A stretch of DNA of 58,829 bases from Trichoplax sp. H2 (lineage: Eukaryota): NCBI GenBank assembly GCA_003344405.1, contig NOWV01000115.1, positions 186,001 through 244,829 of the forward strand, in the 5' to 3' direction. Position 1 is the stretch's first letter, and each line of letters opens with the position of its first letter. The translations under genes were made by a program, and so were the position numbers. Positions 18,574 through 44,812 of the stretch are shown in pieces. The notes under the pieces were generated by a model that searched no databases, was not told the origin of the DNA, and worked only from the letters and a program-made list of their open reading frames with translations.

Positions 18574-21500
18574 ATGGCGTCTTACCAAAGTGTACCATTA
18601 GATGTCCTTAAATCACAGTCATTAGTGGAATTTATTAAAGAAAAGACAAATGCTGCCAGTTTGCAAGTAAGTTACAGTCTGAAATTCTACTTTGAAAAAG
18701 ACTTTAAATGAAGTTGATCGATCAGTTAAATGAAAAACATTCAATAAAATTCACCAATAATAATTACATCATAGCTTTTAAAAAAATCAAAACTGTTACT
18801 TCTATAACATTGAATTAATCTTGTGTCCATTTGAAATTTATGTTTTCATTAATGCCGTACGTAAAATTTAAGAACGAAGATGATCCTTTCTACTTAGTGG
18901 ATATCAGCGATCTTATATGCAAGTACAAAACGGTGAGTAATCGTCATAAGCAGCTGCAAGCTCATCGTTCTTGTGTAAGAAACATTGCGGTTTATTTCTT
19001 TATATCTATCTATATAGTTCCATCTTGAAATGGTCTAGTTCAAGCTTTAATATAATTAGTAATAATGTCGGCAGTTCGAGTAGAGGAATAAAATGCTCTT
19101 AGCAAATAGTATTTCAATGGTACTTTCTAGTAGTTCCGAAAACTACAACACAGTGCCTTAAAGGACTATGTAGTTACTTATCATTGTAAAGAATTAAAGG
19201 TGTAATAGGCACCACAAAATAGCTTAAAAAAATGATGATAGATCAAACATTATTCCAATATTATTTTTAGAGTTGAACCATAAATGTACAGCATGTTATT
19301 GTCAGTCAAGTATTGAAAGTAGTCGCTCTAGAAACTATTCTATCAATGTTAGTATGCGTAATGTATTAAACACATTTTGTTGTATTAATTATTTATTAAA
19401 TCGTTCTTTTTAGATCTTTTCTTATATTCAAACATATTAGTAAACTATTCACTTAATGAGCAACGGTTTCTGTTATATTTTTACTTGATATGATGGTATC
19501 AATTTACTGGCTACCATTCTGTTCCTATTACGGTCTCTATTACTGGTTTTAGTGGATGTCTTTGCTACCTCGTATCAGGCCATTTTACGGTACATTTCCT
19601 TGATCTAGCGTTTTAAATTACAGCTGAGGGTTTGTAATTTAAGTAGCAATAATATCTACTGAAAGTTTGTCTTAGCGATTTTATATTTACTTTTGTAGCG
19701 ATGAAATGCAATCCGAATTTCCAAATGGTGGCAACTCTTTGCCGTTTAGGTGCTGGTTTGGACGTAGCAAGTGCAGTATGTTACGCTTGTATATATATAT
19801 ATATATAAGCTCTGATATATGTTAACGCCTTTAAAGTTAAGATTACATTTAAATCTTGTCAAATGTGATATTAAAAATAGGGAGAAATAGAGACTGCGGT
19901 AGCCTTGGGTCTCAAAGGCGAGGACGTCATCTATTCTAATACTTGCAAGGGGATTTCTCATTTGAAGTAAGTTTAAGATTAAAATGCTTCGCTTTACAGT
20001 AAGTAACCATAAATCGATTACCTATCAGGGTTATTGGCATTTACTTCTGATATATTATGCATTAGACAGTCTAAATGGAACTAACATTATATGTTCGCTT
20101 AAATTTAGGGTAGCTGCGAATGAAGGTATAACGCAGATGACATTTGACAGTGAAGAAGAACTGCATAGAATTAAGCGTATACTTCCCAATGCCCGGTAAA
20201 TGTTACTTATTTTCCTGGAAAATAAATTTATTGTTCCGTACATGACTTTAAGGACTAGTAATATTTACGCAGTTGAATTTATATAGACTGTTATTGCGGC
20301 TACTTGTGGATGACTCTGGCGCCCAGTGGAAGGTACAGCTTTGCGATAAAATGGCCATATATGCTTCTTTTGACTTTAGTCTAAATATCATTATTACGGC
20401 TCATATTAATACTAGCACGGAATAAATGCTGGAGCTCCTTTTAGCAGAGTATCTCACTTATTTAAAGTGGCCAAAAAGTTAGGCTTAAATTTAGTGGGAA
20501 CAAGGTAATGCTAAAATGGCAAGTGAAGAGACTTTATTATAGCCAATAAATTGGCTATAGCGCTGTATCAAATAGTAAATAGTAATAGATATACTATCAT
20601 AAATTGAAATGGAGAGAGAAGTCGAGATGTAAAATTGGTTATACAAATTTTAATATGAGATGAGATTTGATTTTACTCAACTTTCTATTCAACGTCTATG
20701 CTAACGCAATTCAAATTGTAACATTGCTGGTGGCTTTAATACAAGTTTTCATGTTGGTTCCGATTGCGGTGATCCTAGTGCATATTCTAAGGCAATAGAA
20801 AGGTGTAGAAAGGCTTTTGATATTGCGGTTAGTTTCAAATTTGTAGTAATATTAACTTTTATATAATTTAAATACTATAATTTTCGTTTTAATTCTCGAT
20901 GCTTAATCATAACAGAAAGGCTTAGGCATGGAACTCAGTATGTTAGATATCGGCGGTGGATATCCAGGACATGCAGATACATTATTTAAAAATGTAGGTG
21001 CTACTGTTAACACCTAATGATCTTGCACTTGCCTTATAAGTCTCGTTTCTTACTTCCAGATGTGTCAGTCTATAAATGAAGCAATAGATATCCATTTTCC
21101 ATCAGGCTGTGGAGTCAAAATAATTTCTGAGCCAGGTAACCTTTTAATCTTTCAGATTGGATGCACTACCGTTGATCCCATTGAATGTTGCTTAAGTCAG
21201 TTCTAGTATAAAAGATTCATAATTGAAATTATGAATTTAATTATGAAATTTAGGCAAGTACTTTGCGATGTCTTCTTCGATTCTATGTGCCAATATTATT
21301 GGTAAACGTCTAAGATACGAAGATGGCGATGTTCAAATCGAAGGTATTAAAGCCTTAGTAAACCAATTTATGATATTAGTCATCTAATACTTAATGGATT
21401 GAACAATATTGCTATAACTAACGACACATAGCTGATAACTCATTCTGAACTTAATTCTTTAATTTCAGGCAATCCAGATGATGCAAAAGACACTGTAAGG

Positions 21501-22202
21501 GTCTTATGTTGTGTTTACCGTTAGCTTAATTTTAAATCTTTCATATCTTTACGTTTCAGGAAGTTATGTATCACATTAGTGAAGGTATGGGAGGCTCTTT
21601 TCTTAGCGTAATTGCTACACATCAGCAGTATATCCCGAAAAAATTGTCGAATAACAACGAAAAATGCTACCGTAGCAGCCTTTGGGGGCCTTCATGTACT
21701 GCAACAGATTGCCTTTTAAGTGATTTTAATCTTCCAGAGGTAAAATTTAATTGAAGGAAATACTGATATAATTGATATTGCAAGTTTACATAACACGTTA
21801 CTACATTAAAAATACTTTACTCTGTTTCGCTGGGCAGATGGAAACTGGTGAATGGGTCTACTATGACGGTAAAAACAGCTAAACTAGTTCTTTATCCTTA
21901 ATAATATACGGTAAAAGCAATACCGGTGCTGAAATGAAATTGCTTTATTTAATAAAAGATTTAGGAGCATACACATCGAGTACCGCTACTAATTTTAATG
22001 GGTTCAAGAAGGCTAAGAGTAGCTATTTCATAAGTGAAGATTACTGGTACGACATATTTTTGCAAAAGCTGTAGAAAATTTGATTTCATCCTCTTTACAT
22101 GCAATCATATAGAGAAAATTCAAATTAATAAATTTTTAATTTATTTTCTATTGCGATAGGAATCAGTTCAAAAAAGAACTGTCGCCCATTTTCAATGTTT
22201 AA
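18574..22202 (+). CDS. Ornithine decarboxylase-like (fold-type III PLP) protein, copy 1, ~420 aa, 17 coding exons
   Basis: Spliced motifs PFYAMKCN (Lys codon 19704-19706), DVASAGE, MTFDSEEEL, SFHVGS, DIGGGYPG, SEPGKYF, WGPSCTATD, GAYT and FNGF. First exons are 18574..18666, 18873..18932, 19553..19589 and 19699..19775. Stop TAA at 22200-22202. Confidence 0.9.
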
Positions 22203-25200: not shown

Positions 25201-25451
25201 GATTCACGCTTAATTTAATTAAAGCTATAGAATTGTGTTTTATCAAACTTCTTTGCATTGGATTTATTCACCCAATTGGTATAGAATTTGTAAGTATTCG
25301 CTTTTCTTCTTTTCTCTCCAATACGTAATACTTTTCAATATTTTATTTAGTGATATTAAAAGAGTTATAACAATAATTACTGTAATTGAAAAATCCGTAC
25401 CTAATGCATGTTCGCGTAAATCGCATTGAAGGATCTAGTAAACTCAGCAAT

Positions 25452-28400
25452 ATGGCGTGCCCTCATCAGGTATCAATAGATGTTATTCGATCGAAATCTC
25501 TGCAAGAAATAATAACAGAAAAAACGAATGCAGCTAATATAGAGGTCAGCTTATCACAAAACTTTACATATAGATTTGAATTGGGTCAGTATTTGAGCAT
25601 TAAATTCTCAAATATATGCAGGTTTTTTGATTAATTTCAAGCCTACTTTGCACTTTTATGGTTTTAAGATAATGGCTCCATTTTGAAGTTTTTTCTTATT
25701 AATGAATTGCATTTTAATTAAAGAATGAGGACGATCCATTCTATTTAGTGGATATCAGCGATGTTATAAACAAGTATAAAACTGTAAGTAATGATACTCA
25801 AATGCGCTCTTAATATCTATATTTGAGATTTACATTGCAATATCCTACTTTATATCTTTTAAATGTTATAACTGCCTAATTTAACACTTGATAATAAGTA
25901 TCATTCTGTTTAAAGTACTTATTAATATATTGGTTCCAAACCGTATCATGCTATACCACATTAAGTGCAAAAGTATTTTACTAGCGAATATTTTTAGATT
26001 CTAATGAAATACAGAGCATAAAAAATATATTAGACTCTACCGATCATCAAAATCTCTTTGTAACTCCTGTATTTAAACTTGAAAGAGAATAAGCAATAAG
26101 CTCATATTGTTTAGCCAATTTGTATCAACTTAAGAAATTGCCCAAACTAAGATATTATCTATTAAATTGGCCTTATTTAGTCTTAGCATTAAGCGTTTCC
26201 TTTATATCATTTCTCGTAGCTAAATAGCGGTATCTGCACACTATTTCTTCAATGAATCACGCCAATTATTGTATTTTTCTCATTATGATGAAATAAATTT
26301 TCTGATCATACTTCATTTTCTTACTGTCTCCATTGAAAAAAAGTGGATTTCCATGATACCACGTGTTAAGCCATTTTACGGTACATTTCCACTATCAAAT
26401 ATATTGCAACTTTAAAATTTGCTGCAGCTATTTTTCAAAGTTTTCTTTATTACTCACATTTTCCTTACAGCAATGAAATCAAATCCAGATTTTCAGATAG
26501 CAGCTACATTATGTGGTTTAGGTACTGGTTTGGATGTTGCAAGTGCTGTAAGTTGTACTTATAATCTTCTATATTCAAAATATAGTTTCAGTTTAAATCA
26601 TTGAAAATATTGAAAATAGGGAGAAATTGAAACCGCTGTAGCAGTAGGTCTCAAAGATGAGGATGTTATATACTCTAATACTTGCAAAGGAATTTCTCAT
26701 TTAAAGTAAGTAAAAGATTAATTGCTTTCATTTTGGTAAAGAAATGTGCTAGCTAAATGTACGTTGTTATCGACGTGATGGTATTTGGTCAGAATTCTTT
26801 TCATTATTCTATTCTAGACTTGAAATTTGGAGTAGTACGACATTTAGTACAGTTTAATTTTTAAATTTGTAACAAAGATAAGTCTATTGATTTGTTTAAA
26901 TTGAAATTATTAGGGTAGCTGCTAAAGAGAATTTAACGCAGATGACATTTGACAGTGAAGTCGAACTGCATAGAATTAAACGTTTATATCCTAGTGCCAG
27001 GTATATATTTTAAATATGATTGGATAAGTAAATGTGATGTTAATGTTTTTAACTCTTATAAAAATAACTTTGAGGATATTTAATAAACATATGTAGACTA
27101 GTATTACGCTTACTTGTGGATGATTCCCATTCTGAGCTTAAGGTAGAGCTTTCAATATATTGTTATATCGACTCTCCTTTCGCCTTATTTAACTTGTTGT
27201 TACTACTTCATGTGTTCCCTAGCTTGGAGTAAAAGCTGGAGCTTCTTTCAGTAGAGTGCCGCATCTATTGAAAGTTGCTAAAGAATTAGGTTTAAATGTG
27301 ATAGGAACAAGGTAAGTGATTATTCTAATACATGAATCGGCGATAAAGTTCTATGTAGTAGATTAACACAAACATTTGCGTCGGTTTTCATAATTCGGAA
27401 GATGCAGTAAGCGCATAACTATCATTATCTATTTCGTAATCCAATATTAACCTAAAATTTAATTCGAGTTAATACTTATTTACGGCTTTAACACTTCATA
27501 ATAGTTTCCACGTTGGTTCTGAATGCGGTAGCCCTGATGCTTATGCCAAGGCAATAGAAAATAGCAGAAGGGTTTTTGATATCGCGGTTTGTTTAAAAAT
27601 TATCCTGTAATGTTGCTCAATTGTTATAATTTTGGTTGAGTATGGAGGCTTATTTACATTTATGCAATAGAAAGGGCTCGGTATGAAATTTAATCTGTTA
27701 GATATCGGTGGTGGATATCCGGGGCAAATAAACGAATTGTTCACAAATGTAAGTCATCGTTATCTCCCAAGGTATATAACAACCTTTTGCTAACTATGAC
27801 AGCCAAACTGCTATACTTTTAGATATCTCGTATTATAAATAAAGCATTAGACATCCATTTTCCTTCAGATAGTGGAGTCCGAATAATTTCTGAACCAGGT
27901 AATTCTCTGTGGCTATCTTATGAACGTTTAAAGTCAATTTAATTTCTATTAAATGTCCAGTTCGTTCACTGCAAGACAAAAATACTATGAATATATTAAT
28001 ATATATTTACATTAAAATTGAACACAAGGCCAATACTTCTCTTGTTCTTCATCAATTCTGGTGGCAAATATTATCAGTAAGCGCATAAGATTTGAGGATG
28101 ACGACATCCAAATTGAAGGTACGAGAGCTAAAATTTAGTACTGCATATTAGCAATAAGATGAGAGTCAAATTGTTGCCCCTTTTGCATCAATTTATATAA
28201 TTTATTAGTTAATACATGAAAACTGATAGTATTTCAAATTTAAATTTTTTATTGCTAGGCTATCCAAGTGATAAGGAAAATATGGTGATGATTGTGTTTA
28301 AATTTTGTAACCTTTTCAATTGATTCTACTTTAATCATTGAATGCTGTTATTTTTATAGGAAATAACGTATCATATTAATGAAGGTGTAATAGGCGCATT

Positions 28401-29002
28401 CATTAGTAAATTGATTATAAATTTGCTGTATATTCCGAAAAAATTGATAAAAAGCAACGAAAAATGCTATCGCAGTAGTATGTGGGGCCCAACATGCACT
28501 CCAGTAGATCAAATTTTAAGCGATTATAATATACCTGAGGTATATCTTCATTTTTGAAGAAATGCAATATTAGAAACTTTAAATTTCCTAAGCCCGCAAT
28601 TAATATATACTTTTTTTCCATTTCGATGGACAGATGGAAGTTGGCGAATGGGTCTATTATGAAAGTGAGTGCATTTATTATTTCTTAAAATGTATAAGAT
28701 AATTCTATCGTAAACAGAAAATCGTATAACGAAGCTATTTTATTGCAAGATCTGGGGGCATATTCATCCGGTTTAGCCACAGATTTTAATGGATTCAAAT
28801 GCAAAAAAAAATATTATTTTATAAACGAAAAAGATTGGTATGATACATTTATTGCAATACCCTCTTGTATGTGAAACTGTTATTTTTGAAATTCACTCCT
28901 CAGCAGAAATGCAGTTGCTTAACCGATAATAATAACTCAATTTGCTCTAATTTCGATAGGGATCAATACAAGAAAGAATTATCTCCTTATTTCAAAAATT
29001 AA
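25452..29002 (+). CDS. Ornithine decarboxylase-like protein, copy 2, ~422 aa, 17 coding exons
   Basis: PFYAMKSN, DVASAGE, SFHVGS, DIGGGYPG, SEPGQYF, WGPTCTPVD, GAYS and FNGF. All 16 introns are at the same positions and phases as in copy 1, and I found no frameshift or premature stop. Confidence 0.9.
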
Positions 29003-29328
29003 CAAATTGCAGTATATGATCATCAGCTGAGCAGTACTAGTACAAAACCCATAGATTTAAGAGCACACGTATACATTATTGAATACCCTGTAAGATTTAT
29101 AATTTTAAGCCTTAAATATTTCTGCAGTCGAGCTTTAGTCGACCAATTTTAGAAATTAAGATTAAAAATTAACAAATTGCAGTATAAGATCATCAGCCGA
29201 GCAGTACTAATACAAAACCCATAGATTTAAAAGCACATGGATACATTATTGAATACTCTGTAAGATTTATAATTTTAAGCCTTAAATATTTCTACAGTCG
29301 AGCTTTAGTCGACCAATTTTAGAAAATT
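28994..29328. repeat. 170-bp tandem duplication of the copy-2 stop codon and 3' UTR
   Basis: AAAAATTAACAAATTGCAGTAT...GTCGAGCTTTAGTCGACCAATTTTAGAAA is repeated at offset 170 with few substitutions. Confidence 0.9.
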
Positions 29329-30164
29329 GATAATTTCGTGTATAAGTAATCTCTTTTCTTCATACATACAGTTTTTAAATGTGTAACACGATCAGAAAAT
29401 GTTTGTTGAATTCATGTTTAATATTTAAATTAACTGCTGATACTAAAACTATTACGTTATTCATCAAGGATAAAGTGAAGTTATGCTGAAGATCAGAGTT
29501 CATTTCTATTATGATCCTACTACTTTTTCGTTATTTCAAAGTATGATTAGTAATCATAACAGGACTTCAATGCACTTTAATTTGCTCCTAATAAAATTTG
29601 CATTATTCGCGTGAGTTTTAGAAAATTGCTCTGAATCACTGAAAGGTATTAGCCATTAAAATCCTAAGATAATGTTACATGTGCACATACATCATAAGGT
29701 TTGCCATTGCTAGATAAAGTAGAAATTACTAAATTAATGGCGAATAAATATGCAGCATTAATACTCTAATGCTATTACTAAGCTCTACATAGCTATAGGA
29801 TTGGCTAAATATTTCATTTGAAAGCAATTGGCATTAGTACTACTACATTGCATTCATCTATTTACTACCCAAAATTTGTTATTCTAAGGTTTGTTTAATT
29901 TATATTGGCCAACTGACTAAATTACACTAAATAAAATTACGCAGCGTGTGATTGCTAGGTCTGCCGGGATAAATAGAGTTTCTGGATACTGTGCTTAACC
30001 ACTAGTATTTATTTTGATGCTTCCTACTACAGTCTTGACCTATCAATATCTAAATTTATTTTTATATTCTGTTATCATAGATTTTTTGAAACAAAGTACA
30101 GTACTAAACCAAATAATATAGATTGAACACTCAATGGTGCTGTAGCAATAACTTTAAACAGTTT

Positions 30165-31575
30165 AACGTACTAGCTTAACGTCTGATCACTTTGCTGACA
30201 GAGATACCGTAGCCTATTCCATTCTTTTAATCCATAAAAACCAGAATAGGTTAACGCTCGAATTCGCTTTAACTTTACTCGTTTAACGTCCTGTTACTTC
30301 GCTGATAGAGATGCTACAGTTTTATCCATTATTTCAATCCATAAAGAGAGAGTATGCTTATATCGCACAGTAATTAACTAGCTTAACGTATTGCCACTTG
30401 GCTGACAGAGATACTAAAGTCTTTTCCATGCATAAAAAGAGAGTAGGCTTAAAACTTAATACTACTCAGTAATCAGTTAGCTTAACGTTTTGCCACTTCC
30501 CTGGCAGAGATAGATACTATAGTCTTTTCCGTTATTTCAATCCATAAAGAGAGAGTATGCTTATGTTGCACAGTAATCAACTAGCTTAACGTCTTACCAC
30601 TTCGCTGATAGAGATACTACAATTTTTTCCACTATTTCAATCCATGAAACGAGAGTAGACTTAAACTTAGTACTGCTCAGTCATAAACTAGCTTTAACGT
30701 ACTAACTTAACGTCTTATTACTTCGCTGATAGAGATCCTACAGTCTTTTCCATCATTTCAATCCATAAAGAGAGTGCTGACTTATATTTAATAGTTAATA
30801 TTTAATATTGCTCTGTAATCAACTAGCTTAACGTTTTGCCACTTCGCTGACAGAGATACTAAAGTCTTTTCCATGCATAAAAAGAGAGTAGGCTTAAAAC
30901 TTATTACTACTCAGTAATCAGTTAGCTTAACGTTTTGCCACTTCCCTGGCAGAGATAGATACTATAGTCTTTTCCGTTATTTCAATCCATAAAGAGAGAG
31001 TATGCTTATGTTGCACTGTAATCAACTAGCTTAACGTCTTGCCACATCGCTGACAGAGATATTAAAGTCCTTTCAATCACTAAAAAGAGAGTAAGCTTAA
31101 GCTTAACACTGTTCAGTAATCAGCTAGCTTAATGGCTTGCCACTTCACTAGCAGAAATAGATACTACAGACTTTTCCATTATTTTAATCCATCAAAAGAG
31201 TATAGGCTTACACTTAATATTGCAAAGTACTCTACTAGCTTAACGTCTGCACTCGTCGCTGTCAGAAATACTACCGTTTTTTCCATCATTTCTGTGCATA
31301 AAACGGAAGTAACTTACGCTTAATATTGCACAGTAATCAACTAGCTTAACGTCTTGCCATTTCGCTGTCAGAAATACTACCGTCTTTTCCATTATTTCCA
31401 AGCATAAAACGAGAGTAGGCTTAAGCATAAGACTGCTTAGTAATCAACTAATTGAACGTCTTGCCATTTCGCTGGCAGAAATACTACCGTTTTTTCTATC
31501 CTTTGCATGCATAAAACGAGAGAAGGCTTAAGTTGAACACTGCTTAGTAATCAACTGGCTTAACGTCTTGCTACA
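30165..31575. repeat. Minisatellite, ~14 units of ~100-110 bp with higher-order structure
   Basis: Recurrent AACTAGCTTAACGTCTTGCCACTTCGCTGACAGAGATACTAC..TCTTTTCCATTATTTCAATCCATAAA.AGAGAGTAGGCTTA. The block at ~30380-30600 is nearly identical to ~30825-31045 (offset ~445). Confidence 0.92.
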
Positions 31576-31629
31576 AATCAATAAAGAGAGAGTAAGTTGA
31601 GGCAATTGGTTTTACAATAATTCTCAACT

Positions 31630-32038
31630 ACTTGTTCTATTTCCTGTCTCCCTTGCTCATCCAGAGTTTAATTGCAGGAAATTTTCACCAAGGTCGTTAG
31701 TTCAATTCGCTCTTCTAGACATGAATATTCAACACCTCGTAAACTAGTGTATCATGTACTCCATTGAGCCAAATAATCTGTATGGCATTCGAGCAAAGTA
31801 CAACGCAGTAAAGAACAAAGTTCAAGGTGCTCGTTGAGCATCAATTGCACTAGACTCTACGATATAGGCAAGCAATTGGCCATTTTTTTCCAGTCAAGCA
31901 TTGGGAGTTTGCCTTATCCTGCTCATCATAGCCACTACAAGTACGATACTTGATGCAGCCATTTGTCATGCAAATTATCTTATTCTTCATTTCCAATGCA
32001 ATTTGTGTTAGCTGATGTAATTGTTGATGAACGTATAC
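31630..32038 (-). pseudogene. Possible decayed coding fragment, death-domain-like
   Basis: One minus-strand frame reads GKLPMLDWKKMANCLPIS*SLVQLMLNEH...LLECHTDYLAQWST* with several stops. It resembles the death-domain DW..LA..L...W pattern by eye only. Confidence 0.25.
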
Positions 32039-32326
32039 TTATTAAGTATGATTAATTAATTCTTCATACTATGGTGTTGTTGTTAGCTTAAGGAATAGAC
32101 TTTCCGATCGATCCTTCTGAATACATTTCAAGTTGGACTGGTAGCAGTCTTCATTTTCCTTCCGTTTTGATTTGTATTTTTTGGTGCAGAAATTGTAAGT
32201 ATCTACTTGTTTCTTTCCTTGTACAAAGATATGATCTTGCTTGTAAGCAATCTTGAAAGGGATTTTACTAAGTGTACTATAACAACATCGATCTTGTAGC
32301 GTAGAAAAACCTACAGACTCAGCAAG

Positions 32327-35300
32327 ATGGCGTCTCATCGTGCTGCACCAATAGACATTATACAATCACAATCATTGCAAGAATTAATTCTGGAAAGAAC
32401 AAACGCAGCGAAATTAAAAGTAAGTCAACTTCTCCAGCATGCACATTTCAATTTATCCTGATTTGCCACTAGAAATTCTATTCAAAGGATCATTTGCAAG
32501 TCGGTTTATAGAATGTTCAACATTTCCACTTGGGTGATTTTACTTGAAAATGTTTCTGTTTTAATTTATATTATGGCGTTAATCAACACGTTGCAAAGAA
32601 TGATGATGAACCATTTTATTTAGTGGATATTGGCGACGTTATATACAAGTACGTAACTGTAAGTAAGCGGAATGGGATGTTTTTTTTACTGTCCTTACTT
32701 AAGATTGACGTTATACCACGGTACTATGTCTTTCTTCACATCTTTAAAATGTTTAACTGGCTAAATCGAAGCAGCTGCAATGTAAAAAGATGACCATAAC
32801 TGAAATTGCATTTCACTTACATTTCTTGTTCAACTCCGAAAAGTACTCTACCTTAGAACACTAAAGAGGTTTAGTTACTTTTTACCAGACAAAATACAAA
32901 TGGCCAAAATAATTTTAGAACAAACTCACAGTTACAGCTATTCTAGCCTCTGTACACCACGATTAGATTTGAGCAATCTTAAATAGCAAGTTCATGTTGT
33001 TACACTGTCTAGGCTTTTTATTTTAACTTATTGGTGCTCTATCTTTCATATCTATTATCGTACTTAGATTGAATGTTAAGTTGCTAACTTTACCTATAAC
33101 TACAATGTTGTTATTGATCACTAGTATAATTCTTTTTCTTATTTTCTGATCATGACGCTATTCTTTTCCACATCTCACGACTGAAATTAGTGGACGTCCA
33201 TGATGCCTGGTATCAGGCCTTATTTTGGTATGTTTCTTCTACTAGACTTATGACAGCTGTAGTACTTACCTTTCAGGTACGACTAGCAACTGAAGGTTTA
33301 TTCGATAATTAATTTTTCCCTTCAAGCTTTGAAATGCCACCCGGATTTCCAGATTATAGCCACTTTATGTAGTTTAGGTGCTGGTTTGGACGTAGCAAGT
33401 GCTGTAAGTTCTGATGTACAATAGTGATGAACAGGCAGAACTTGAGTTATAAAAATATCATTTTGATATTAGGGAGAAATAGAAATAGCTAGAGCATTAG
33501 GTCTCCAAGATGAAGATGTAGTCTACTCCAATACTTGCAAGGGAATTTCTCATATAAGGTATGCTTGCCTAAAATTAGAGCCGTGATTACGTATCGTCTA
33601 TTGCTAATCGCTGTGAATAGAATAAACTTTTATTTCTGAAAGTATCAATGCATAAGAACACTTCATGATCTGATATAAATAACATCCATCTTTATACGGG
33701 ATGATTCAATGGAATTCAAAATTGCTGACGAATTTATTACCTCGTGTTAATTTTAATCTATTAGGGCAGCAGCTAAAGAAGGTCTGACGCAGATGTCCTT
33801 TGATAGCGAGGTAGAACTACAAAGAATTAAGCTTACATTTCCAAATGCGAAGTAAGTAATTGAATGTGAATCCTACGAGTGGATTAGATGCCACTCTTTT
33901 CCGATGAATTAATAAATGATTTGGCTTTTACATTATGCAGACTGCTAATACGTTTGCTTGCGGATGACTCACATTCCATCCTTAAGGTATAGTAGAGCAA
34001 TAAGAGAGTTTAATGAGCTCTATTTTTACCCTATTTTTATGCATTTAATACGGTGCTATTAAAATAATAGACAGGTGCAAAAGCTGGAACTCCGTTCAGT
34101 AGAGTATCGCACCTGTTTAAGGTTGCTAAAGAATTAGGTTTAAATGTAGTCGGTACAAGGTAATCGAATGATTCACATAGCAATCACCTTAACATGTTCA
34201 ACTTATAATCAGTAAATTCGACTTTGATATATTGCTAGCAGTAAACACGGTATGCATGTATTTTCTCCTCTTTATTAGAATTTATGCTAGAAAGAGATGG
34301 TACTGCCATTAATAAGGACTTAATAGGCTTTCTTTTTGTTCTCTATTCAATATTATTTCAAATACATCACCCATTGTTAATACTGTGGACAATTTGAACT
34401 ATTCCAATAAGTTTTCACATCGGTTCCGGTTGTCATGACCCTAGTGCTTTTACGAAGGCCATAGAAAAGTCTAAAAAGGCCTTTGATATCGCGGTTAGTC
34501 CACTAGTTGTAGTGAAGTAGAACCCTTTAGCCTAACTTAACTACTTAAAATTTAATTTGATTGTTACAACAGAAAGAGCAAGGCTTGGAACTCAAGGTGC
34601 TAGATATTGGAGGTGGATTTCCTGGACATGCAAACACATTATTCGAAAATGTCAGTCCTGATGAATTATTTCAGTAAATTCAATGCTGCTTTTAAACGTA
34701 GAGCTTTTGATTTTCAGATGTGCCATGCTGTCAATCAAGCTATAGACATTCATTTTCCAGCAGATAGTGGAGTGAAAATAATTGCTGAGCCAGGTAATAG
34801 TCTAGATGTTGATACTGATCTCATGAAATCTGCCACATGAAATGATATCTTACAAAGCGTCAGAGATTCTAAGATGAAATATCATTAAATGACCTAGTTT
34901 GCTCATAATTTGAACATAGGCAGGTTCTTTGCCCATACTTCTTCAACTTTGGTTGCCAATATTATCGGTAAACGACTTAGATATAGTGATGACGACGTTC
35001 AGATTGAAGGTACGGTATTAAGTGCAATGAAACAGCTTCTAAAATTCGATAAAATAACAAGAATAAGATGGGCACGCGTTACTAAATAGCCAAATAACTA
35101 CACAGAGATACAAAACTGATATATACTCCAATTTTTAATATTCATTTTAGGGCACCCTAATGATACGGAAAATATGGTGATATTTTTTTTAGTTTTAATT
35201 ACCACCATGCATTAAGTTAATTTTAACACTTCTTATTCATATGATATCTTTTCAGGAAATGCTATATCACATCAATGATGGCTTAATCGGCTCTTTTCTT

Positions 35301-35874
35301 GGAACAATATTAGCACGTCAAAAATATCTTCCACAGCAATTGATACCTACTAAAGGAAAATCTTACCGCAGTAGTTTATGGGGACCATCATGTGGAGCAA
35401 TGGATTGCCTTTTAAGTGACTGTAATCTCCCAGAGGTATGATATATATTAATTTGTGGTTATAATGATAGCCTTTAAAGTTTACGGGCATCTTACTTGAA
35501 GTCACATATTTAATCGAGCAGATGGAAGCCGGCGAATGGGTCTACTATGAAGGTACCGTATAAATAACTTTCATCTTAAAATACCATTGCGATAATAATT
35601 AAAGAGTAAGAGAATTATTTTATTAATAGATATGGGAGCGTATACATCGTGCTTAACCACTAATTTCAATGGATTCAAGAACACAACTAGATACTATTAC
35701 ATAAATGAAAAATATTGGTACGACTTGCCATTTTCATCAATGTTGTAGCTTATCTTATTTACAAATTAACTTATCAGTTTATGATTAATGAATATCTAAC
35801 AGATATTTTTTTATTCCAATTGCGATAGGAATCAATACAGGAAAGAATTATCTCCGTATTTTAGTATTGAATAA
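32327..35874 (+). CDS. Ornithine decarboxylase-like protein, copy 3, ~420 aa, 17 coding exons
   Basis: PYFALKCH, DVASAGE, SFHIGS, DIGGGFPG, AEPGRFF, INDGLIGSF, WGPSCGAMD, GAYT and FNGF. Same exon structure as copies 1 and 2; stop TAA at 35872-35874. Confidence 0.9.
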
Positions 35875-37383
35875 TGAGATAAATAATCAACTGCTGGTTT
35901 GTTGTAGTGTGGGGTTTGATGTTTAAAATAACGATACTTCTTTTATATGATGTTAGTTTATATGGCGGGATAATAATAATTCAGATTTGCTTTTCCATTC
36001 TATAAAATGTTCTTTCAAAATTCGGTCATAGGATCTTAAACTTATTATTTAATCATATCAAAATAAAAAATTCTACTGTTGGTCATAAGATCATGATGTG
36101 AGCAAGTATGATTGCTGCACTTTGCTTCACTCTATCTGCAAATTAGCTTTACGGCTACGGTGCTCTGACAGATTATGTTCAAATACGACTTCAGATTACC
36201 GTGAAACAAGACAATATTAATCCTAATTAAAGTCGCTCACAACTGCTATTCTGATTCAAGTGCCAACTAACTTGCTTACTTACCAATTAACTCCTTAATA
36301 ACTAGGTGAAAATTTTCTGATAATACCAATTTAAGCATTGATCAATATGGCGTTGAGCTACATAATTTTACGGCTGCATGATTCGTTCGTAGACTGGGTG
36401 ATATATAACAAGAACTGATGCATCCAATTATAATTATTTTACTTTGTTGACTAATATGAAACTGTTACAACGACTATTATATATACGTATTAACCATGCC
36501 GCAATTTTACACACTAATTGTTATACTTTACGGAGTAGAAAGGTTACAATGATTGCAAATTTCAGGAAAAAAGCTCGAAATTAGTATTATTGAATATCGT
36601 ACTAAATGTAACTTATTCAATTTGAGTCTCTATTTATTCTGCTCACCGTTTTGGAGCTTTATACGGTATACTCATATTATATTCGACAATAATAAACCTA
36701 CCAAGCAACGCTATGCAGACACAGATCCTTTAAGAATTTCTCTACCTCTTTCAGGCACAGCTTTGCAAGTTGCAACGGTGCTCTTACAGTTTTATGTGAC
36801 AACTTTATTGCCATTCGTCACGGACTACTTCCTGACAAGTACAATTCTAACGTAAAGCATTTACATTAAGTTGCTTCTACAGATTCTACCCTAATCTGTC
36901 GAAAGATCTAGTAAGAATAAAGTGCTGATACTATAACGCCTAAGAACTACACTTCTAAAAGGCTCGCAACCAATAGACACACTGTACTATAATCTACAAA
37001 ATAGCTTTATACTATAATACTGAAATACTCTCTGCAACAATACCATCTAAACTCTATAATTTAGGCAACGTAGTGCCGCAATACCGTTTTAAAGTGACTT
37101 TCTAAAGTCTAGACACATTTAATAAGACACCAGGAATTAAGATTAAGACATTACTAGCAAAGGCTAGCTCAGATTACTCGGTGAGCATTTTAATAAATTT
37201 TCATGCCTTTGCAAGGAAAATGCGGCCAAGGTTCTGACTATAATGAGTGCACTCGAAAAACTTGCATTATGCAAATGTTAAATGAAGAAAAATCTCCTAC
37301 TTATATATTTTTATTGAACATAATTGTTTTACGTGCGAAAGATGCACGTAAGAACTGAACCAATTTAATTAGATGGCAGTGTG

Positions 37384-37403
37384 NNNNNNNNNNNNNNNNN
37401 NNN
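37384..37403. other. Assembly gap (20 N) between overlapping, probably allelic contig ends
   Basis: 35968..37383 recurs at 37404..39057, differing by a few SNPs, an 81-bp indel and a 319-bp tandem duplication. Confidence 0.9.
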
Positions 37404-38275
37404 GGATAATAATAATTCAGATTTGCTTTTCCATTCTATAAAATGTTCTTTCAAAATTCGGTCATAGGATCTTAAACTTATTATTTAATCATATCAAAAT
37501 AAAAAATTCTACTGTTGGTCATAAGATCATGATGTGAGCAAGTATGATTGCTGCACTTTGCTTCACTCTATCTGCAAATTAGCTTTACGGCTACGGTGCT
37601 CTGACAGATTATGTTCAAATACGACTTCAGATTACCGTGAAACAAGACAATATTAATCCTAATTAAAGTCGCTCACAACTGCTATTCTGATTCAAGTGCC
37701 AACTAACTTGCTTACTTACCAATTAACTCCTTAATAACTAGGTGAAAATTTTCTGATAATACCAATTTAAGCATTGATCAATATGGCGTTGAGCTACATA
37801 ATTTTACGGCTGCATGATTCGTTCGTAGACTGGGTGATATGTAACAAGAACTGATGCATCCAATTATAATTATTTTACTTTGTTGACTAATATGAAACTG
37901 TTACAACGACTATTATATATACGTATTAACCATGCCGCAATTTTACACACTAATTGTTATACTTTACGGAGTAGAAAGGTTACAATGATTGCAAATTTCA
38001 GGAAAAAAGCTCGAAATTAGTATTATTGAATATCGTACTAAATGTAGCTTATTCAATAAGCAACGCTATGCAGACACAGATCCTTTAAGAATTTCTCTAC
38101 CTCTTTCAGGCACAGCTTTGCAAGTTGCAATGGTGCTCTTACAGTTTTATGTGACAACTTTATTGCCATTCGTCACGGACTACTTCCTGACAAGTACAAT
38201 TCTAACGTAAAGCATTTACATTAAGTTGCTTCTACAGATTCTACCCTAATCTGTCGAAAGATCTAGTAAGAATAA

Positions 38276-38914
38276 AGTGCTGATACTATAACGCCTAAGA
38301 ACTACACTTCTAAAAGGCTCGCAACCAATAGACACACTGTACTATAATCTACAAAATAGCTTTATACTATAATACTGAAATACTCTCTGCAACAATACCA
38401 TCTAAACTCTATAATTTAGGCAACGTAGTGCCGCAATACCGTTTTAAAGTGACTTTCTAAAGTCTAGACACATTTAATAAGACACCAGGAATTAAGATTA
38501 AGACATTACTAGCAAAGGCTAGCTCAGATTACTCGGTGAGCATTTTAATAAATTTTCATGCCTTTGCAAGGAAAATGCGGCCAAGGTTCTGACTAGTGCT
38601 GATACTATAACGCCTAAGAACTACACTTCTAAAAGGCTCGCAACCAATAGACACACTGTACTATAATCTACAAAATAGCTTTATACTATAATACTGAAAT
38701 ACTCTCTGCAACAATACCATCTAAACTCTATAATTTAGGCAACGTAGTGCCGCAATACCGTTTTAAAGTGACTTTCTAAAGTCTAGACACATTTAATAAG
38801 ACACCAGGAATTAAGATTAAGACATTACTAGCAAAGGCTAGCTCAGATTACTCGGTGAGCATTTTAATAAATTTTCATGCCTTTGCAAGGAAAATGCGGC
38901 CAAGGTTCTGACTA
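38276..38914. repeat. 319-bp direct tandem duplication
   Basis: AGTGCTGATACTATAACGCC...CCAAGGTTCTGACT occurs at 38276 and 38595; the other copy has it once (~36921). Confidence 0.9.
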
Positions 38915-41244: not shown

Positions 41245-44200
41245 ATGGCTTCCCATCATGTTGTACCATTAGAAGTCACCGAGTCGCAGTCTTTACAAGA
41301 AATCATTACTCAAAAAGCGAATGCAGTAAACTTAAATGTAAGTTTGATTTTTTATTGGATATTATTGGCCAAATGTCCGAATCTATCATTACTTCCTTGA
41401 TTGCTGCATTATTTTACTTTGCTCGCTGATTCAAGCCATAAGCTACTATTGCTTAAATATGGAAATTTATATATAATTTTTTTGTTTTACCGAATGTCAA
41501 AGAATGAAGATGAAGCATTTTATTTGGTGAATATTGGTGATATTATATACAAGTTTAACACTGTAAGCAAACTGTAGCTAATATAAAAGACTTAATAAAT
41601 AATATCGTTACCTAGAAAATATCAGACCTATATCAAATTTACCACTTTCTCGATTTATAGATGCAATGAATAGGTTTTATAACTCCTTAGGCTCGCTATC
41701 CATTAACTTGAAATTTGAGATTAAAATTGAGCCAACCTCTAGTCTCACACAACTTGTGTTACTGTTATTACTAAAATTAACTAAAATTACTACTGTAGAT
41801 TACCATGCAATCAATCATCGCTGAATTAACGATAGAATATGTAGCAATTAAAATAAACCAACGTAAATTGACGAAGAAGTGTTCTCGTTTAATCGTAAAA
41901 CTATCTTAAAATTATCGACAGTAGTAAGTTTGATAAGTTTACCCAACTTTCCTATGTAAAAGAAATATTTACTATCTCTATCTCCTTAAGACACCAGTCT
42001 TATAACCCCTTATTTCTAGTCTCTGTTAATCTGCCTGAATGCTATTTGAATATCATTTTGGTAGCGATAGAATTTTAAAATAATATGATATTCTGACGTT
42101 TCTTTTTGCTTATAATAAAATTAGTGGTTGTCCGCACTACCTCGTGTAAAGCCCTTTTACGGTAATTTCATGCTAGCGTTTGTTACAGTAGATGTAGAGT
42201 CGAGTTTAAATAAAAAGAAGCTTTCTAATATTTTATGTAATTTCGTCCTTAAGCTATACAATGCAATCCAGACTTTCATCTAGTAGCAGCTTTACGTAGT
42301 CTAGGTGCCAGTTTCAGCGTCACAAGTGCTGTAAGTGATAGAAGTCTAAGAGAAGTGTTTAAATCCTTTAGCCACATTAAATCAAATTTAATGTTATTGA
42401 GATAGGCTGATATACGGTTAACGACTGCGTTGGATGTCAAAAATGACAATATCATCTATTCAAATCCGTGCAAAGGATTGTCTCATTTAAAGTAAGTGAG
42501 ACAGAGTATTCTCGATCATTTTAATGATGAAATACCAAGCTAATTCCTTCATAAACTGTTAAGATTGTAACGATGTTTTATCTAATATTTAGTTCAAACT
42601 ATAGAGTTCAGGTATTAAAAGTTAAAGATTTTTCTATGCAAAATCTGATGACGAATATTCACCATGACTTATTGAGAAGCCAGTTTTGTTGCAGCGTTTT
42701 TGATTTTGGATACTTTATATTTAGGGTGGCTCTGATAAAAGGAATAACTCTGATGACTTTCGATAGCGAAGGAGAACTACAGCGAATAAAGCGTATGGTT
42801 CCACATGCAAAGTAAATAGTAGGGTTTAATTTTGAAATGATACTCATATTGGATAGATCGACAATTTTTTGAAATTATTGACTGGAATAGATTGCTGTTA
42901 CGACTGAAAGTTGATGATTCTAAAGCGGCTTTTCCGGTATGTACGGTCAAAAAATTTGAAATAAACTTTCATTTTTCTCTGCTTAGATTTCATGATACAA
43001 ACTAATCTACGTCCACTTTAGTTAGGGGCGAAGTATGGAGTACCCTTCTCTAGAGTGTTGCACTTATTTAAAGTTGCTAGAAAATTAAGTTTAAATGTAA
43101 TAGGAATAAGGTAAGAAAACTAGTAATTAACCATAATTTATTACTTGAAGTTGGACCGACGATGATTAGTTTGTTCTTATTTAAAATAATAAAAAAATAT
43201 ACTTGACAAATATGGTAAATAAATTTAAAATACAGGAATAAGTCCTTGTGTTAAAAGATAATTATGCTGATTTAGTTTCCATGTTGGTTCTGGCTGTGAT
43301 GACCCCGATTCTTTTACTAAAGCTATTGAAAAGTCCAAAAAAGCGTTCAATCTAGCAGTTAGCTTCCGAGTTGCTTTTTAAGATTATATGTAGTAAGACT
43401 GAATTAAAATAACGACTTTTTAATGCGAGTCGCAATATTTAATTACTTTAACAGAAAGAGATTGGCTTGGATCTCACATTACTAGATATCGGTGGCGGAT
43501 ATCCGGGGATTGAAGATACATTATTTGAAAATGTAAAAAGAGATTTACTTATTCCACGATTAATTATACTTATTTGTATGTCGGATTTGATGGCCAAAGC
43601 ACTTTATTTTCAGATTTGTGGAGCCATTACTGAAGCACTTGACAAATATTTTCCTACAGAATGTGGAGTTGAGATAATAGCAGAGCCAGGTAGAACCTTT
43701 TTGACTAAGGATAAATGTTACATAAAATTTGGCCGTCCTTATCACGGCAATGGATTAAAAGTCTAGATGAATCTTAGTCTATGATCGATGCTAAAGGTTT
43801 AACGTTATTACTTGTATTTTGGTGGCTAGGAAAATATTTTACTACCTCTTCAATGATTTTAGTCACGAATGTCATTGGTAAACGTCTGAGATACGATGAT
43901 AATGTGAAAACTGAACGTATGTAATCTATTAATAGAAAGACCATTTTTTCTGATACTATGCTTTCGACAGAGTCATTATGATCATTTAATATTGATGTAA
44001 AACTTGAACTCTAATATTACCAGAAAAAATTAAAAAATTGCTTTTCATCGTAATTGATAATTTCAGAGAATCAATCCCATAAGGAAAGCATGGTTAGGGC
44101 ATATTATTTGCATTACATTTTCGAAAATACTGGTTTCATTCTTTTTGTTTGCATGATTACTTTTATAGGAATGCATGTATCATATTAATGATGGCTTGCA

Positions 44201-44812
44201 TGGATCTTTCCTTAGAAGATTATTCACAAAAGAGCCATTCATACCTAATGTACTGAAATCGAAAAGTGGTCAATTCCATCGTAGCAGCATATGGGGGCCT
44301 ACATGTAATGGACTGGATTGTATTGCAAGTGGCCAAACTATTCCAGAGGTATACCATAGTATAGATTTTACATTTTAATGCAGAATGCTAAGGTTTACTT
44401 ACAATAAATATGAATGAACGCGGTAATACTTTATTTGATTAGATGGAAGCTGGTGATTGGACTTACTTTGAAAGTGAGTATATAGGTGATCTCGAAAGTA
44501 CTTGAATTTATACATTTGATGAAACTGTTCTTGTTTATAAGATCTAGGAGCATATGCATCAGCTGCGTCCTCCAATTTTAACGGATTTGCAAGTAAAGAA
44601 AGGCATTATTACATAAGCAAAGAACATTGGTGAGCCAAATTTGTTCTTGGACTATTTGCGCTAGTAACTGTATGATTCAATTCGCTCCTACTTTTAAAGC
44701 TAGATTAATTTTACCAATCAATAATTTATTCCAATTTAATAGGAGTATGACTAATAAAGAAGTCAAGCAAGAGTTATCTCGATATTTTGATATTCATTTT
44801 AATACACAATAG
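41245..44812 (+). CDS. ODC-like protein copy 4, lacking the PLP Schiff-base lysine (putative pseudoenzyme, antizyme-inhibitor-like)
   Basis: PFYAIQCN (CAA at 42259-42261 replaces Lys) and SVTSAAD in place of DVASAGE. It keeps NPCK, KYG, SFHVGS, DIGGGYPG, AEPGKYF, NDG, WGPTCNGLD, GAY and FNGF. All 17 exons are open. Confidence 0.88.

What the first reader, a model, noticed from the sequence alone, without database searches (positions are those of the whole stretch)
18574..44812. Four-gene ODC-like array in which every copy has lost the diamine-binding acids, each differently
Seen (human ODC1 numbering, aligned by motif): D361 in GPTCD becomes T, T, G, N. The specificity helix FNCILYDH (D332) becomes FLSVIATH, FISKLIIN, FLGTILAR, FLRRLFTK. 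Y323 becomes G, I, I, H and R277 becomes K, Q, R, K. The PLP and catalytic scaffold (K69 and D88 in copies 1-3; H197, GGG loop, E274, C360, Y389 in all) is kept and all frames are intact. Known: D332 and D361 bind the ornithine delta-amino group, and this helix sets substrate choice in fold-III decarboxylases; a mouse ODC paralog is a leucine decarboxylase. Inference: copies 1-3 are not ODCs but neofunctionalised decarboxylases for neutral or hydrophobic amino acids, a potential unrecognised route to biogenic amines.
Basis: partly seen in the sequence, partly recalled or inferred. Interest (0 to 1): 0.85.

Follow-up and report, generated by a model that had tools for sequence, protein, structure and literature searches.

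The report
Four remodelled ODC-like genes in Trichoplax
A placozoan carries four neighbouring copies of the polyamine enzyme ornithine decarboxylase whose substrate pocket has lost both charge-binding acids, so they probably no longer make putrescine and may make other amines or act as regulators.

Summary
The window is a Trichoplax scaffold with four tandem ODC-family genes on the + strand. Each has 17 exons, GT-AG introns and an intact frame of 422-430 aa. RNA contigs show spliced transcripts of copies 1-3.

All four lack both ornithine delta-amino binders: D361 is T,T,G,N and D332 is T,I,A,T. Y323, Y331 and mostly R277 are also changed. Copies 1-3 keep K69, D88, E94, R154, H197, S200, GGG, E274, C360, Y389, F397 and N398. 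Copy 4 has K69Q, D88S and E94D. Only 3 of 231 other homologues lack both acids.

A canonical ODC (TRIADDRAFT_27475) lies elsewhere in the genome. The four copies form one long-stemmed clade with pairwise dN/dS of 0.16-0.23. The specificity helix is their most diverged family-conserved element.

An AZIN-like or regulatory role remains a strong rival, because positions 277/331/332 also set AZIN1's monomer state and the antizyme-binding residues are kept. Mouse leucine decarboxylase keeps D332 and D361, so it is not a precedent for this route. ODC paralogues with altered key residues are a known recurrent theme. I rate this a new variant of a known kind, of moderate interest.

The parts
18574..22202 (+). 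Copy 1 (TRIADDRAFT_31473-like), 17 exons, 422 aa. K69, D88, C360 kept; R277K, Y323G, Y331A, D332T, D361T, K169N.
   Evidence: Model. 15 of its 16 introns are among the 15 joints listed for RNA contigs of X8 and/or X9. 388 of 390 residues match P0001 over P0001's own exon chain.
25452..29002 (+). Copy 2 (TRIADDRAFT_60902-like), 17 exons, 422 aa. K69, D88, C360 kept; C70S, R277Q, Y323I, Y331I, D332I, D361T.
   Evidence: Model. X8 RNA contig record 19 (1140 nt) has pieces at 28359-28537 and 28959-29125, and there is a joint 27742>27823.
32327..35874 (+). Copy 3 (TRIADDRAFT_31500-like), 17 exons, 423 aa. K69, D88, R277, C360 kept; N71H, Y323I, Y331L, D332A, D361G.
   Evidence: Model. Contigs X9 records 25 and 27 and X8 record 21. 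The 27 record letters between the two pieces of record 21 fit the 26-nt microexon.
41245..44812 (+). Copy 4 (TRIADDRAFT_60904-like; Trichoplax sp. H2 'Ornithine decarboxylase'), 17 exons, 430 aa. K69Q, D88S, E94D, R277K, Y323H, Y331F, D332T, D361N; C360 kept.
   Evidence: Model. Matches P0004 and P0015. Its expression was not examined because it lies outside the stretch laid.
21560..21739 (+). Copy 1 exon 14: Y323 position, specificity helix, C360 and the D361 position (codons at 21590-21592, 21614-21619, 21695-21700).
   Evidence: Helix predicted at P0001 residues 297-302, block pLDDT about 90.
28360..28539 (+). Copy 2 exon 14 (pocket exon).
35256..35435 (+). Copy 3 exon 14 (pocket exon).
44169..44348 (+). 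Copy 4 exon 14 (pocket exon).
42259..42261 (+). Copy 4 codon CAA (Gln) at the Schiff-base lysine K69. The equivalent AAA (Lys) codons are at 19704-19706, 26476-26478 and 33332-33334 in copies 1-3.
21469..21494 (+). 26-nt microexon 13 of copy 1. Homologous 26-nt exons lie at 28259-28284, 35151-35176 and 44067-44092.
   Evidence: RNA joints 21341>21467 and 21494>21560; homologues found.

Best explanation
The array is a placozoan-specific radiation of the eukaryotic ODC family (fold-type III PLP decarboxylases). On its stem it lost the two acids that hold the delta-ammonium of ornithine.

Inferred, not shown: copies 1-3 are still PLP enzymes working as ODC-type dimers. K69 forms the Schiff base; H197, E274, D88, R154, S200, the GGG loop and Y389 hold the cofactor; C360 from the partner subunit protonates the intermediate. 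Their side-chain pocket is built from the 326-333 helix and residue 361' and is now uncharged. It differs in each copy: small and polar in copy 1 (G, A, T, T), aliphatic in copy 2 (I, I, I, T) and copy 3 (I, L, A, G). They would therefore decarboxylate non-basic amino acids to monoamines rather than ornithine to putrescine. Putrescine is left to the canonical ODC encoded elsewhere (TRIADDRAFT_27475).

Copy 4 has no Schiff-base lysine (K69Q) and has also lost D88. It cannot be a decarboxylase on its own, yet it is conserved, so it is a pseudoenzyme. Most likely it is a regulatory partner: a heterodimer subunit that still offers C360, or an antizyme binder.
For: - Genes intact. All four models have 17 exons, 16 GT-AG introns and no internal stops.
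- Expression. Spliced RNA contigs cover copies 1-3. For copy 1, 15 of 16 introns are among the 15 joints listed.
- Selection. Pairwise dN/dS is 0.16-0.23 in all six pairs, with dS 1.0-1.7, near saturation.
- Fold. P0001 carries PF02784 and PF00278. Its best solved relatives are ODCs (7odc, E 5.7e-98). The AlphaFold model has pLDDT 92.1 and TM 0.92 to human ODC, and the helix is kept.
- Catalytic set spared in copies 1-3. Of 76 columns at least 93% conserved in 231 homologues, copies 1-3 together changed 21. Only 1 of those (R277) is among the 15 PLP/catalytic positions, against 4.1 expected (P = 0.036). Copy 4 changed 14, 4 of them in that set.
- Unlike AZINs. AZINs are reported to lack K69 and C360 (PMC6738921, passages) and to carry major changes at 5 of 16 PLP residues (PMC3543441). 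Copies 1-3 do not.
- Pocket diversified. The four 8-residue windows with the largest gap between family conservation and identity among copies 1-3 all lie on the specificity helix. Of the 12 windows (out of 393) with at most 1 identical column, 8 overlap it.
- Canonical ODC present. P0137 changed 0 of 76 conserved columns.
- Precedents. ODC paralogues can be real enzymes with other substrates: mouse leucine decarboxylase (PMC6313458, PMC7671201) and Xenopus AZIN2, a lysine/ornithine decarboxylase (PMC6738921).
Against: - No activity, PLP binding or dimerisation was tested. The dimer prediction never ran.
- The statistical sparing of the catalytic set is modest (P = 0.036 for the union; P = 0.18, 0.18 and 0.043 for the single copies).
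- Keeping catalytic residues does not prove activity. Gm853 with all 20 key residues showed no activity on ornithine, lysine or arginine, and was first taken for an AZIN (PMC5518511).
- R277 binds the PLP phosphate and is K/Q in copies 1 and 2. R277S cuts human ODC kcat to about 10% (PMC4139326).
- Y331, D332 and R277 are dimer-interface residues whose AZIN1 states favour a monomer. K169, a 100% invariant interface residue, is N in copy 1. A monomer would have no complete active site.
- The antizyme-binding residues are kept.
- In another Trichoplax lineage (run X8), 4 of the 5 amino-acid changes seen in the copy-2 pocket exon fall in or next to the helix. This fits relaxed constraint as well as tuning.
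Confidence: 0.45

Rival explanations
1. All four are non-catalytic regulators of polyamine metabolism. They would act either as AZIN-like antizyme sinks or as partners that heterodimerise with the canonical ODC and silence or modulate it. This is the kind of role Ivanov et al. 2010 proposed for altered ODC paralogues.
For: - K115, A123, E138 and L139 of the antizyme-binding element are kept in all four copies, and K141 is a conservative R.
- Positions 277, 331 and 332, three of the four that make AZIN1 monomeric, are changed (3 of them in copies 1, 2 and 4; 2 in copy 3).
- Copy 4 has certainly lost the catalytic lysine.
- Each copy has changed 13-14 of 76 family-conserved columns.
- The best solved match of the copy-2 pocket exon is AZIN1 (E 5.7e-09).
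- Recurrent origin of such paralogues is reported (PMC5574924 passages citing Ivanov 2010).
Against: - Copies 1-3 keep K69, C360 and 14 of 15 (copy 3: all 15) PLP/catalytic positions after a long stem of 0.68 changes per site. Known AZINs are reported to lose such residues.
- Y389, the fourth AZIN1 monomer determinant, is kept, as are D134, D364, G387 and F397.
- Three maintained, divergent copies with different pockets are not needed for a simple antizyme sink.
- Whether Trichoplax has an antizyme was not established here.
Confidence: 0.3
2. Copies 1-3 are PLP enzymes of this fold but no longer simple decarboxylases. They might be racemases, decarboxylation-dependent transaminases, or enzymes acting on a non-amino-acid amine.
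For: The cofactor site is kept while the substrate site is rebuilt. The fold also houses alanine racemase (the 'alanine racemase structural family' in the title of Kidron et al. 2007, seen only in reference lists).
Against: F397 and N398 (the CO2 pocket) and C360 are kept in all four copies, as expected for a decarboxylase. Nothing in the sequence points to another chemistry.
Confidence: 0.08
3. They are still low-affinity ornithine, lysine or other diamine-forming decarboxylases, like the divergent Entamoeba enzyme.
For: E. histolytica ODC has Y323H, Y331F, D332E, D361N and A111S and still decarboxylates ornithine with Km 1.5 mM (PMC3543441, passages). Copy 4 shares H323, F331, N361 and S111, and all four copies share A111S.
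Against: The Entamoeba enzyme keeps an acid (E) at 332. Copies 1-3 have no acid at 332 or 361, nor anywhere in the 12 residues from F326. A canonical ODC is present. Copy 4, the one most like the Entamoeba pocket, lacks K69.
Confidence: 0.07
4. They are decaying duplicates with no function.
For: Many family-conserved positions are changed (13-14 of 76 per copy). The clade has a long stem.
Against: - Four intact 17-exon frames with identical exon lengths, apart from exon 12 of copy 4 and the last exon.
- dN/dS is 0.16-0.23 in all six pairs.
- Transcripts of copies 1-3 are spliced.
- A 26-nt microexon is conserved in all four copies.
Confidence: 0.02

Closest known systems
Eukaryotic ornithine decarboxylase (human/mouse ODC1; in this genome TRIADDRAFT_27475)
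   Same: Same family and fold: PF02784 + PF00278, 7odc E 5.7e-98, TM 0.92 to human ODC. Copies 1-3 have the same cofactor and catalytic residues.
   Different: D332, D361, Y323 and Y331 are replaced in all four copies and R277 in three. There is no long C-terminal tail beyond about residue 425; the proteins end in a short conserved ...W(N/D)Q(F/Y)(K/R)KELSP(I/Y)F tail.
Antizyme inhibitors AZIN1/AZIN2
   Same: They are ODC paralogues with altered key residues. Positions 277/331/332 are changed, as in monomeric AZIN1. The antizyme-binding residues are retained. Copy 4 lacks K69, as AZINs are reported to.
   Different: Copies 1-3 keep K69, C360, R154, Y389 and the rest of the PLP set. The array is a separate placozoan clade, not orthologous to vertebrate AZINs.
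Mouse leucine decarboxylase (Gm853/ODCrp)
   Same: An ODC paralogue that does not use ornithine or lysine, does not bind antizyme, and makes an aliphatic monoamine.
   Different: It keeps all 20 ODC key residues, including D332 and D361. It is a vertebrate gene. Its specificity is attributed by modelling to a small non-polar cleft, not to loss of the acids.
Entamoeba histolytica ODC (DFMO-insensitive)
   Same: Substrate-pocket substitutions Y323H, Y331F, D361N and A111S, with PLP residues kept. Copy 4 has the same H, F, N and S.
   Different: It keeps E at 332 and K at 69 and is a proven, weak ODC.
Lineage-specific ODC-like paralogues of other animals (planarian ODC3-6; Ivanov et al. 2010 survey)
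   Same: Several paralogues exist beside one canonical ODC, with substitutions in the 18-20 key residues. A putrescine-independent role was shown for planarian ODC5/6.
   Different: Here both substrate acids are lost in every member of a tandem array, with a different pocket in each. In my sample only 3 of 231 homologues lost both.
Chlorella virus PBCV-1 arginine decarboxylase (2nv9/2nva)
   Same: Same fold. Recalled from memory, not read here: Shah et al. 2007 identify the helix carrying the D332 equivalent as the element that sets substrate choice.
   Different: It keeps an acid (E) on that helix and still acts on a basic amino acid.

Membership tests
Fold-type III PLP decarboxylase, Orn/DAP/Arg decarboxylase family 2 | Both Pfam domains (PF02784 N-terminal barrel, PF00278 C-terminal sheet domain) | tested here: met
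   Precomputed Pfam entries for P0001-P0004. P0001 model TM 0.92 to human ODC.
Fold-type III PLP decarboxylase, Orn/DAP/Arg decarboxylase family 2 | Schiff-base lysine (K69) plus PLP ligands D88, E94, R154, H197, S200, G235-237, E274, Y389 | tested here: met
   Met in copies 1-3. Not met in copy 4 (K69Q, D88S, E94D).
Fold-type III PLP decarboxylase, Orn/DAP/Arg decarboxylase family 2 | Catalytic C360 and CO2-pocket residues F397 and N398 | tested here: met
   Kept in all four copies.
Ornithine decarboxylase proper (EC 4.1.1.17) | Acidic residues D332 and D361 that bind the substrate delta-amino group | tested here: not met
   T/T, I/T, A/G and T/N in copies 1-4.
Ornithine decarboxylase proper (EC 4.1.1.17) | Y323 and Y331 (substrate contacts; Y331 is in the interface aromatic zipper) | tested here: not met
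   G/A, I/I, I/L and H/F. Roles as given in PMC3543441.
Ornithine decarboxylase proper (EC 4.1.1.17) | Decarboxylation of L-ornithine | not testable with these tools
   Needs an enzyme assay.
Antizyme inhibitor (functional class) | Loss of PLP-binding and catalytic residues | tested here: not met
   Copies 1-3 changed 1, 1 and 0 of 15. Copy 4 changed 4 of 15, so copy 4 alone meets it.
Antizyme inhibitor (functional class) | Conserved antizyme-binding residues (ODC K115, A123, E138, L139, K141) | tested here: met
   K, A, E, L kept and K141R in all four. Active ODCs share these residues too, so the feature is not discriminating.
Antizyme inhibitor (functional class) | Binds antizyme more tightly than ODC; monomer in solution | not testable with these tools
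   No Trichoplax antizyme sequence was in hand. The dimer prediction never ran.
Vertebrate leucine decarboxylase (Gm853) orthologue group | Orthology to the vertebrate gene, and all 20 ODC key residues retained | tested here: not met
   The array is a separate clade (support 100) outside the vertebrate groups. Residues 277, 332 and 361 differ.

The most novel reading that the evidence does not exclude
Copies 1-3 are three amino-acid decarboxylases with different neutral substrates. They would give placozoans a second, unrecognised route to monoamines (aliphatic or small polar trace amines) beside the single AADC now assumed to be their only source. Their products would be candidate ligands for the orphan placozoan receptors closest to bilaterian monoamine receptors. 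Copy 4 would be a dead partner subunit that tunes them, prozyme-like.
Probability: 0.2. Interest if true: 0.8.

Novelty: new variant of a known kind. Interest (0 to 1): 0.5.

Why it matters
Placozoans have no neurons but do signal with small molecules. A 2025 preprint (bioRxiv 10.1101/2025.04.18.649542, passages) deorphanised T. adhaerens receptors for tryptamine, phenethylamine and tyramine. [quoted passage not shown] It also leaves unanswered a whole receptor clade next to the bilaterian monoamine receptors. The word 'ornithine' does not occur in its main text.

If the array makes other amines, it would supply candidate ligands and show a second, independent recruitment of the ODC fold for monoamine synthesis, after mouse leucine decarboxylase. 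If instead the copies are regulators, Trichoplax would have an unusually elaborate control layer: four or more pseudo-ODCs for one ODC.

Either way, the array is a clean natural experiment on how the 326-333 helix and residue 361 set specificity in this fold. It also shows that the public gene models of all four genes are incomplete.

Tried and rejected
- **Own genome.** None is held, so other ODC homologues could be sought only through protein databases.
- **First 15-exon models.** The models were replaced after the RNA joints showed a 26-nt microexon, a different exon 9/10 and 10/11 boundary, and a terminal exon.
- **TRIADDRAFT_53993 (P0023).** I first took it as the possible canonical ODC and rejected that. 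Its model lacks the C360/D361 segment and starts with a stray fragment identical to part of P0121. The canonical one is P0137.
- **Runs X4 and X5.** They gave only short unspliced contigs, also over introns and spacers, and none of the 15 listed joints. I treat them as DNA-like and as no evidence of expression.
- **Copy 4 expression.** Copy 4 lies outside the stretch laid, so nothing can be said about its expression.
- **Missing copy 2 cover in X9.** This is not evidence of silence.
- **Dimer prediction.** It never ran and I dropped it.
- **Papers not held.** Ivanov et al. 2010 and Su et al. 2009. I know them only through citing papers, and cannot say whether Ivanov et al. already listed the Trichoplax genes.
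- **Literature searches.** Searches for Trichoplax with 'ornithine decarboxylase' (4 papers, none on these genes), with 'antizyme' (4 papers), and for six locus tags (0 papers) found no description of the array.
- **Supplements.** These are closed, so single-cell atlas tables that may list these genes could not be seen.
- **Other placozoan genera.** No orthologues appeared among the 120 hits listed of 508, so per-orthologue conservation of the pockets could not be tested.
- **Branch-site dN/dS.** Not attempted: there are only four sequences and dS is saturated.


Full report
**What the window is.** The window is AT-rich (GC 0.29-0.37) and carries small exons with short introns. The pocket exon of the first copy found one database protein, TRIADDRAFT_31473 of Trichoplax adhaerens, at 97% identity. 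Over that model's own exon chain the window gives 388 of 390 identical residues. Copy 4 matches both TRIADDRAFT_60904 and the Trichoplax sp. H2 protein named 'Ornithine decarboxylase'. The window is therefore a Trichoplax scaffold of the adhaerens/H2 lineage. No whole genome is held for it.

**Anatomy.** P0001 gives four colinear sets of tblastn matches on the + strand. The copies correspond to TRIADDRAFT_31473, 60902, 31500 and 60904. I built exon chains with a splice-site search and corrected them with RNA.

Contigs of run X8 (on record as RNA-Seq) and run X9 carry spliced joints. For copy 1, the 15 joints listed cover 15 of the 16 introns of the final model (31 further joints were not shown). 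They revealed three things that the public model lacks:
- a 26-nt microexon (21469-21494)
- different boundaries for exons 9/10 and 10/11
- a terminal exon starting at 22160

The same 26-nt microexon and terminal exon exist in the other three copies.

Final models:

| Copy | Coordinates | Length |
|---|---|---|
| 1 | 18574-22202 | 422 aa |
| 2 | 25452-29002 | 422 aa |
| 3 | 32327-35874 | 423 aa |
| 4 | 41245-44812 | 430 aa |

Each has 17 exons and 16 GT-AG introns. Exon lengths are identical except exon 12 of copy 4 and the last exon. There are no internal stops. Protein identities are 63-68% among copies 1-3 and 53-55% to copy 4.

Transcripts are also seen for copy 2 (X8 record 19, 1140 nt) and copy 3 (X9 records 25 and 27; X8 record 21, whose 27 intervening letters fit the microexon). 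Copy 4 was outside the stretch laid.

| Position | Copy 1 | Copy 2 | Copy 3 | Copy 4 |
|---|---|---|---|---|
| D361 | T | T | G | N |
| D332 | T | I | A | T |
| Y331 | A | I | L | F |
| Y323 | G | I | I | H |
| R277 | K | Q | R | K |

K69, D88 and E94 are kept in copies 1-3 and are Q, S and D in copy 4. R154, H197, S200, GGG, E274, C360, D364, Y389, F397 and N398 are kept in all four.

One pairwise alignment places a gap at D332 in copy 3. Copies 1-3 have no acidic residue in the 12 residues from F326, so the loss is robust to gap placement.

Among 231 other homologues, D332 is D/E in 214 and D361 is D in 223. Both are non-acidic in 3: a scallop, a frog and a sturgeon paralogue.

**Context in the genome.** A second protein search found more Trichoplax homologues.
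- TRIADDRAFT_27475 (P0137) is a canonical ODC. It differs from the family consensus at 0 of 76 columns that are at least 93% conserved. Copies 1-4 differ at 14, 14, 13 and 14.
- TRIADDRAFT_62377 and 53993 are a further divergent pair that keep D332, and D361 where modelled.

In a tree of 53 sequences the four copies form a clade (support 100). Copy 4 is sister to copies 1-3 (98), on a stem of 0.68 changes per column. The canonical Trichoplax ODC sits among ordinary animal ODCs (quick search).

A tree forcing the array together with 62377/53993 had a log-likelihood 29.65 higher than the free search (p-AU 0.918). The group was named after seeing the shared C-terminal tail, and long branches are involved. 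This only suggests one placozoan radiation in which the array lost the acids after splitting from the pair that kept them.

**Selection.** Pairwise dN/dS (Nei-Gojobori) is 0.16-0.23 for all six pairs, copy 4 included, with dS 1.0-1.7, near saturation. None of the copies is decaying.

Of the 76 conserved columns, copies 1-3 together changed 21. Only R277 is among the 15 PLP/catalytic positions, against 4.1 expected (P = 0.036). Copy 4 changed 14, 4 of them in that set.

Of 393 windows of 8 residues, the four with the largest excess of family conservation over identity among copies 1-3 all lie on the 326-333 helix. Of the 12 windows with at most one identical column, 8 overlap it.

In run X8, apparently a more distant Trichoplax lineage, I classified 12 listed differences in copy 2 exons: 7 synonymous and 5 amino-acid changes. 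Four of those five fall in or next to the helix (I->F, I->V, L->S, I->V). The residues at 332 and 361 show no listed change.

**Structure.** The AlphaFold model of P0001 is confident (pLDDT 92.1, pTM 0.90) and keeps a helix at the specificity position. Its best structural matches are human ODC chains (TM 0.92).

**How it most likely works.** The cofactor site is spared, the substrate site is rebuilt differently in each copy, purifying selection acts on all copies, and a canonical ODC is present. This combination is what one expects of enzymes that changed substrate. I therefore read copies 1-3 as PLP decarboxylases of non-basic amino acids (confidence 0.45). I read copy 4, which lacks the Schiff-base lysine, as a conserved pseudoenzyme. 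The chemistry is inferred from the family.

**Why the rival is strong.**
- Positions 277, 331 and 332 are also dimer-interface residues. The AZIN1 states at 277/331/332/389 make it a monomer (PMC6313458, passages). In human ODC, Y331S raises the dimer Kd about 11-fold and R277S cuts kcat to about a tenth (PMC4139326, passages).
- The antizyme-binding residues K115, A123, E138 and L139 are kept, and K141 is R.
- Against this, AZINs are reported to lack K69 and C360 (PMC6738921) and to have major changes at 5 of 16 PLP residues (PMC3543441). Copies 1-3 do not.

- That D332 and D361 contact the substrate is stated in PMC5518511 and PMC3543441.
- The mouse leucine decarboxylase is real (PMC6313458 and PMC7671201). 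However, it keeps all 20 key residues, including both acids, so it is an analogy of outcome, not of route.
- Entamoeba ODC (Y323H, Y331F, D332E, D361N) still uses ornithine with Km 1.5 mM. This shows that partial loss is tolerated when one acid remains. Here none remains.

**Novelty.** Lineage-specific ODC paralogues with altered key residues are known from a survey of over 200 eukaryotic homologues (Ivanov et al. 2010, not readable here; seen as described in PMC5574924 and PMC5518511). I cannot say whether that paper lists these genes.

In the searchable library no paper describes the Trichoplax array. The 2025 preprint on placozoan monoamine receptors considers only AADC as an amine source.

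What is particular here is the loss of both substrate acids in every member of a four-gene array, with the catalytic set kept in three members and a different pocket in each. I rate it a new variant of a known kind, with interest 0.5.

Noticed in passing
window 18574-44812 versus P0001-P0004 and P0015: All public gene models of the array are incomplete. P0001 and P0002 lack exon 1. P0001 and P0002 lack the 26-nt microexon. Of the five models only P0015 has the terminal exon. P0004 and P0015 skip exons 3-4 (the K69 region) and read through an in-frame intron (43533-43613).
   Followed up: yes
window 28402-28482 (copy 2 exon 14) in run X8: The X8 contig differs from the window at 14 letters in 179 nt of this exon. 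Of the listed differences, 5 change the protein, and 4 of those are in or beside the specificity helix. X8 seems to be a more distant Trichoplax lineage.
   Followed up: partly
window 28360-28539: The best solved-structure match of the copy-2 pocket exon is antizyme inhibitor 1 (3btn, E 5.7e-09), with a shared F-x-S-K-L stretch on the helix. This may be chance or convergence.
   Followed up: no
P0023 residues 1-100 versus P0121: The model of TRIADDRAFT_53993 begins with a fragment identical to the middle of TRIADDRAFT_62377. These two divergent ODC-like genes may be neighbours, or one locus assembled twice. Both end in a tail like that of the array (W-N-E-I-Q-G-K...L-P-F).
   Followed up: partly
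window 1437-2339 (-): An uninterrupted 300-codon frame matches PhzC-PhzF (PF02567, E 1.1e-48), a phenazine-biosynthesis-like isomerase family gene.
   Followed up: no
window 6166-9331 and 13125-16482 (+): A second tandem duplication lies upstream. Each unit is a roughly 240-codon frame followed by a roughly 630-codon frame (78% and 55% identical between units). They look hydrophobic and membrane-like by eye and have no Pfam match.
   Followed up: partly
window 30296-31571: A degenerate minisatellite (period about 106 nt, about 10 copies, 63-77% matches) lies between copies 2 and 3. It is covered by contigs of X4 and X5.
   Followed up: no
window 35968-38914, N run 37384-37403: 100%-identical direct repeats start exactly after the N run (35968-36267 = 37404-37703; 36921-37220 = 38276-38575 = 38595-38894). 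This is probably a gap-flanking assembly duplication between copies 3 and 4.
   Followed up: partly
window 32087-32419: X9 record 25 joins 32087-32194 to 32300-32419. Copy 3 therefore has a 5' untranslated exon and an intron upstream of its ATG.
   Followed up: no
window 35718 and 28962 (table 5c): An X9 contig of copy 3 was laid with a backward joint onto the terminal exon of copy 2. Copy 3's own terminal exon (35829-35871) lay outside the stretch laid and resembles that of copy 2. This is a mapping effect, not a chimeric transcript.
   Followed up: yes
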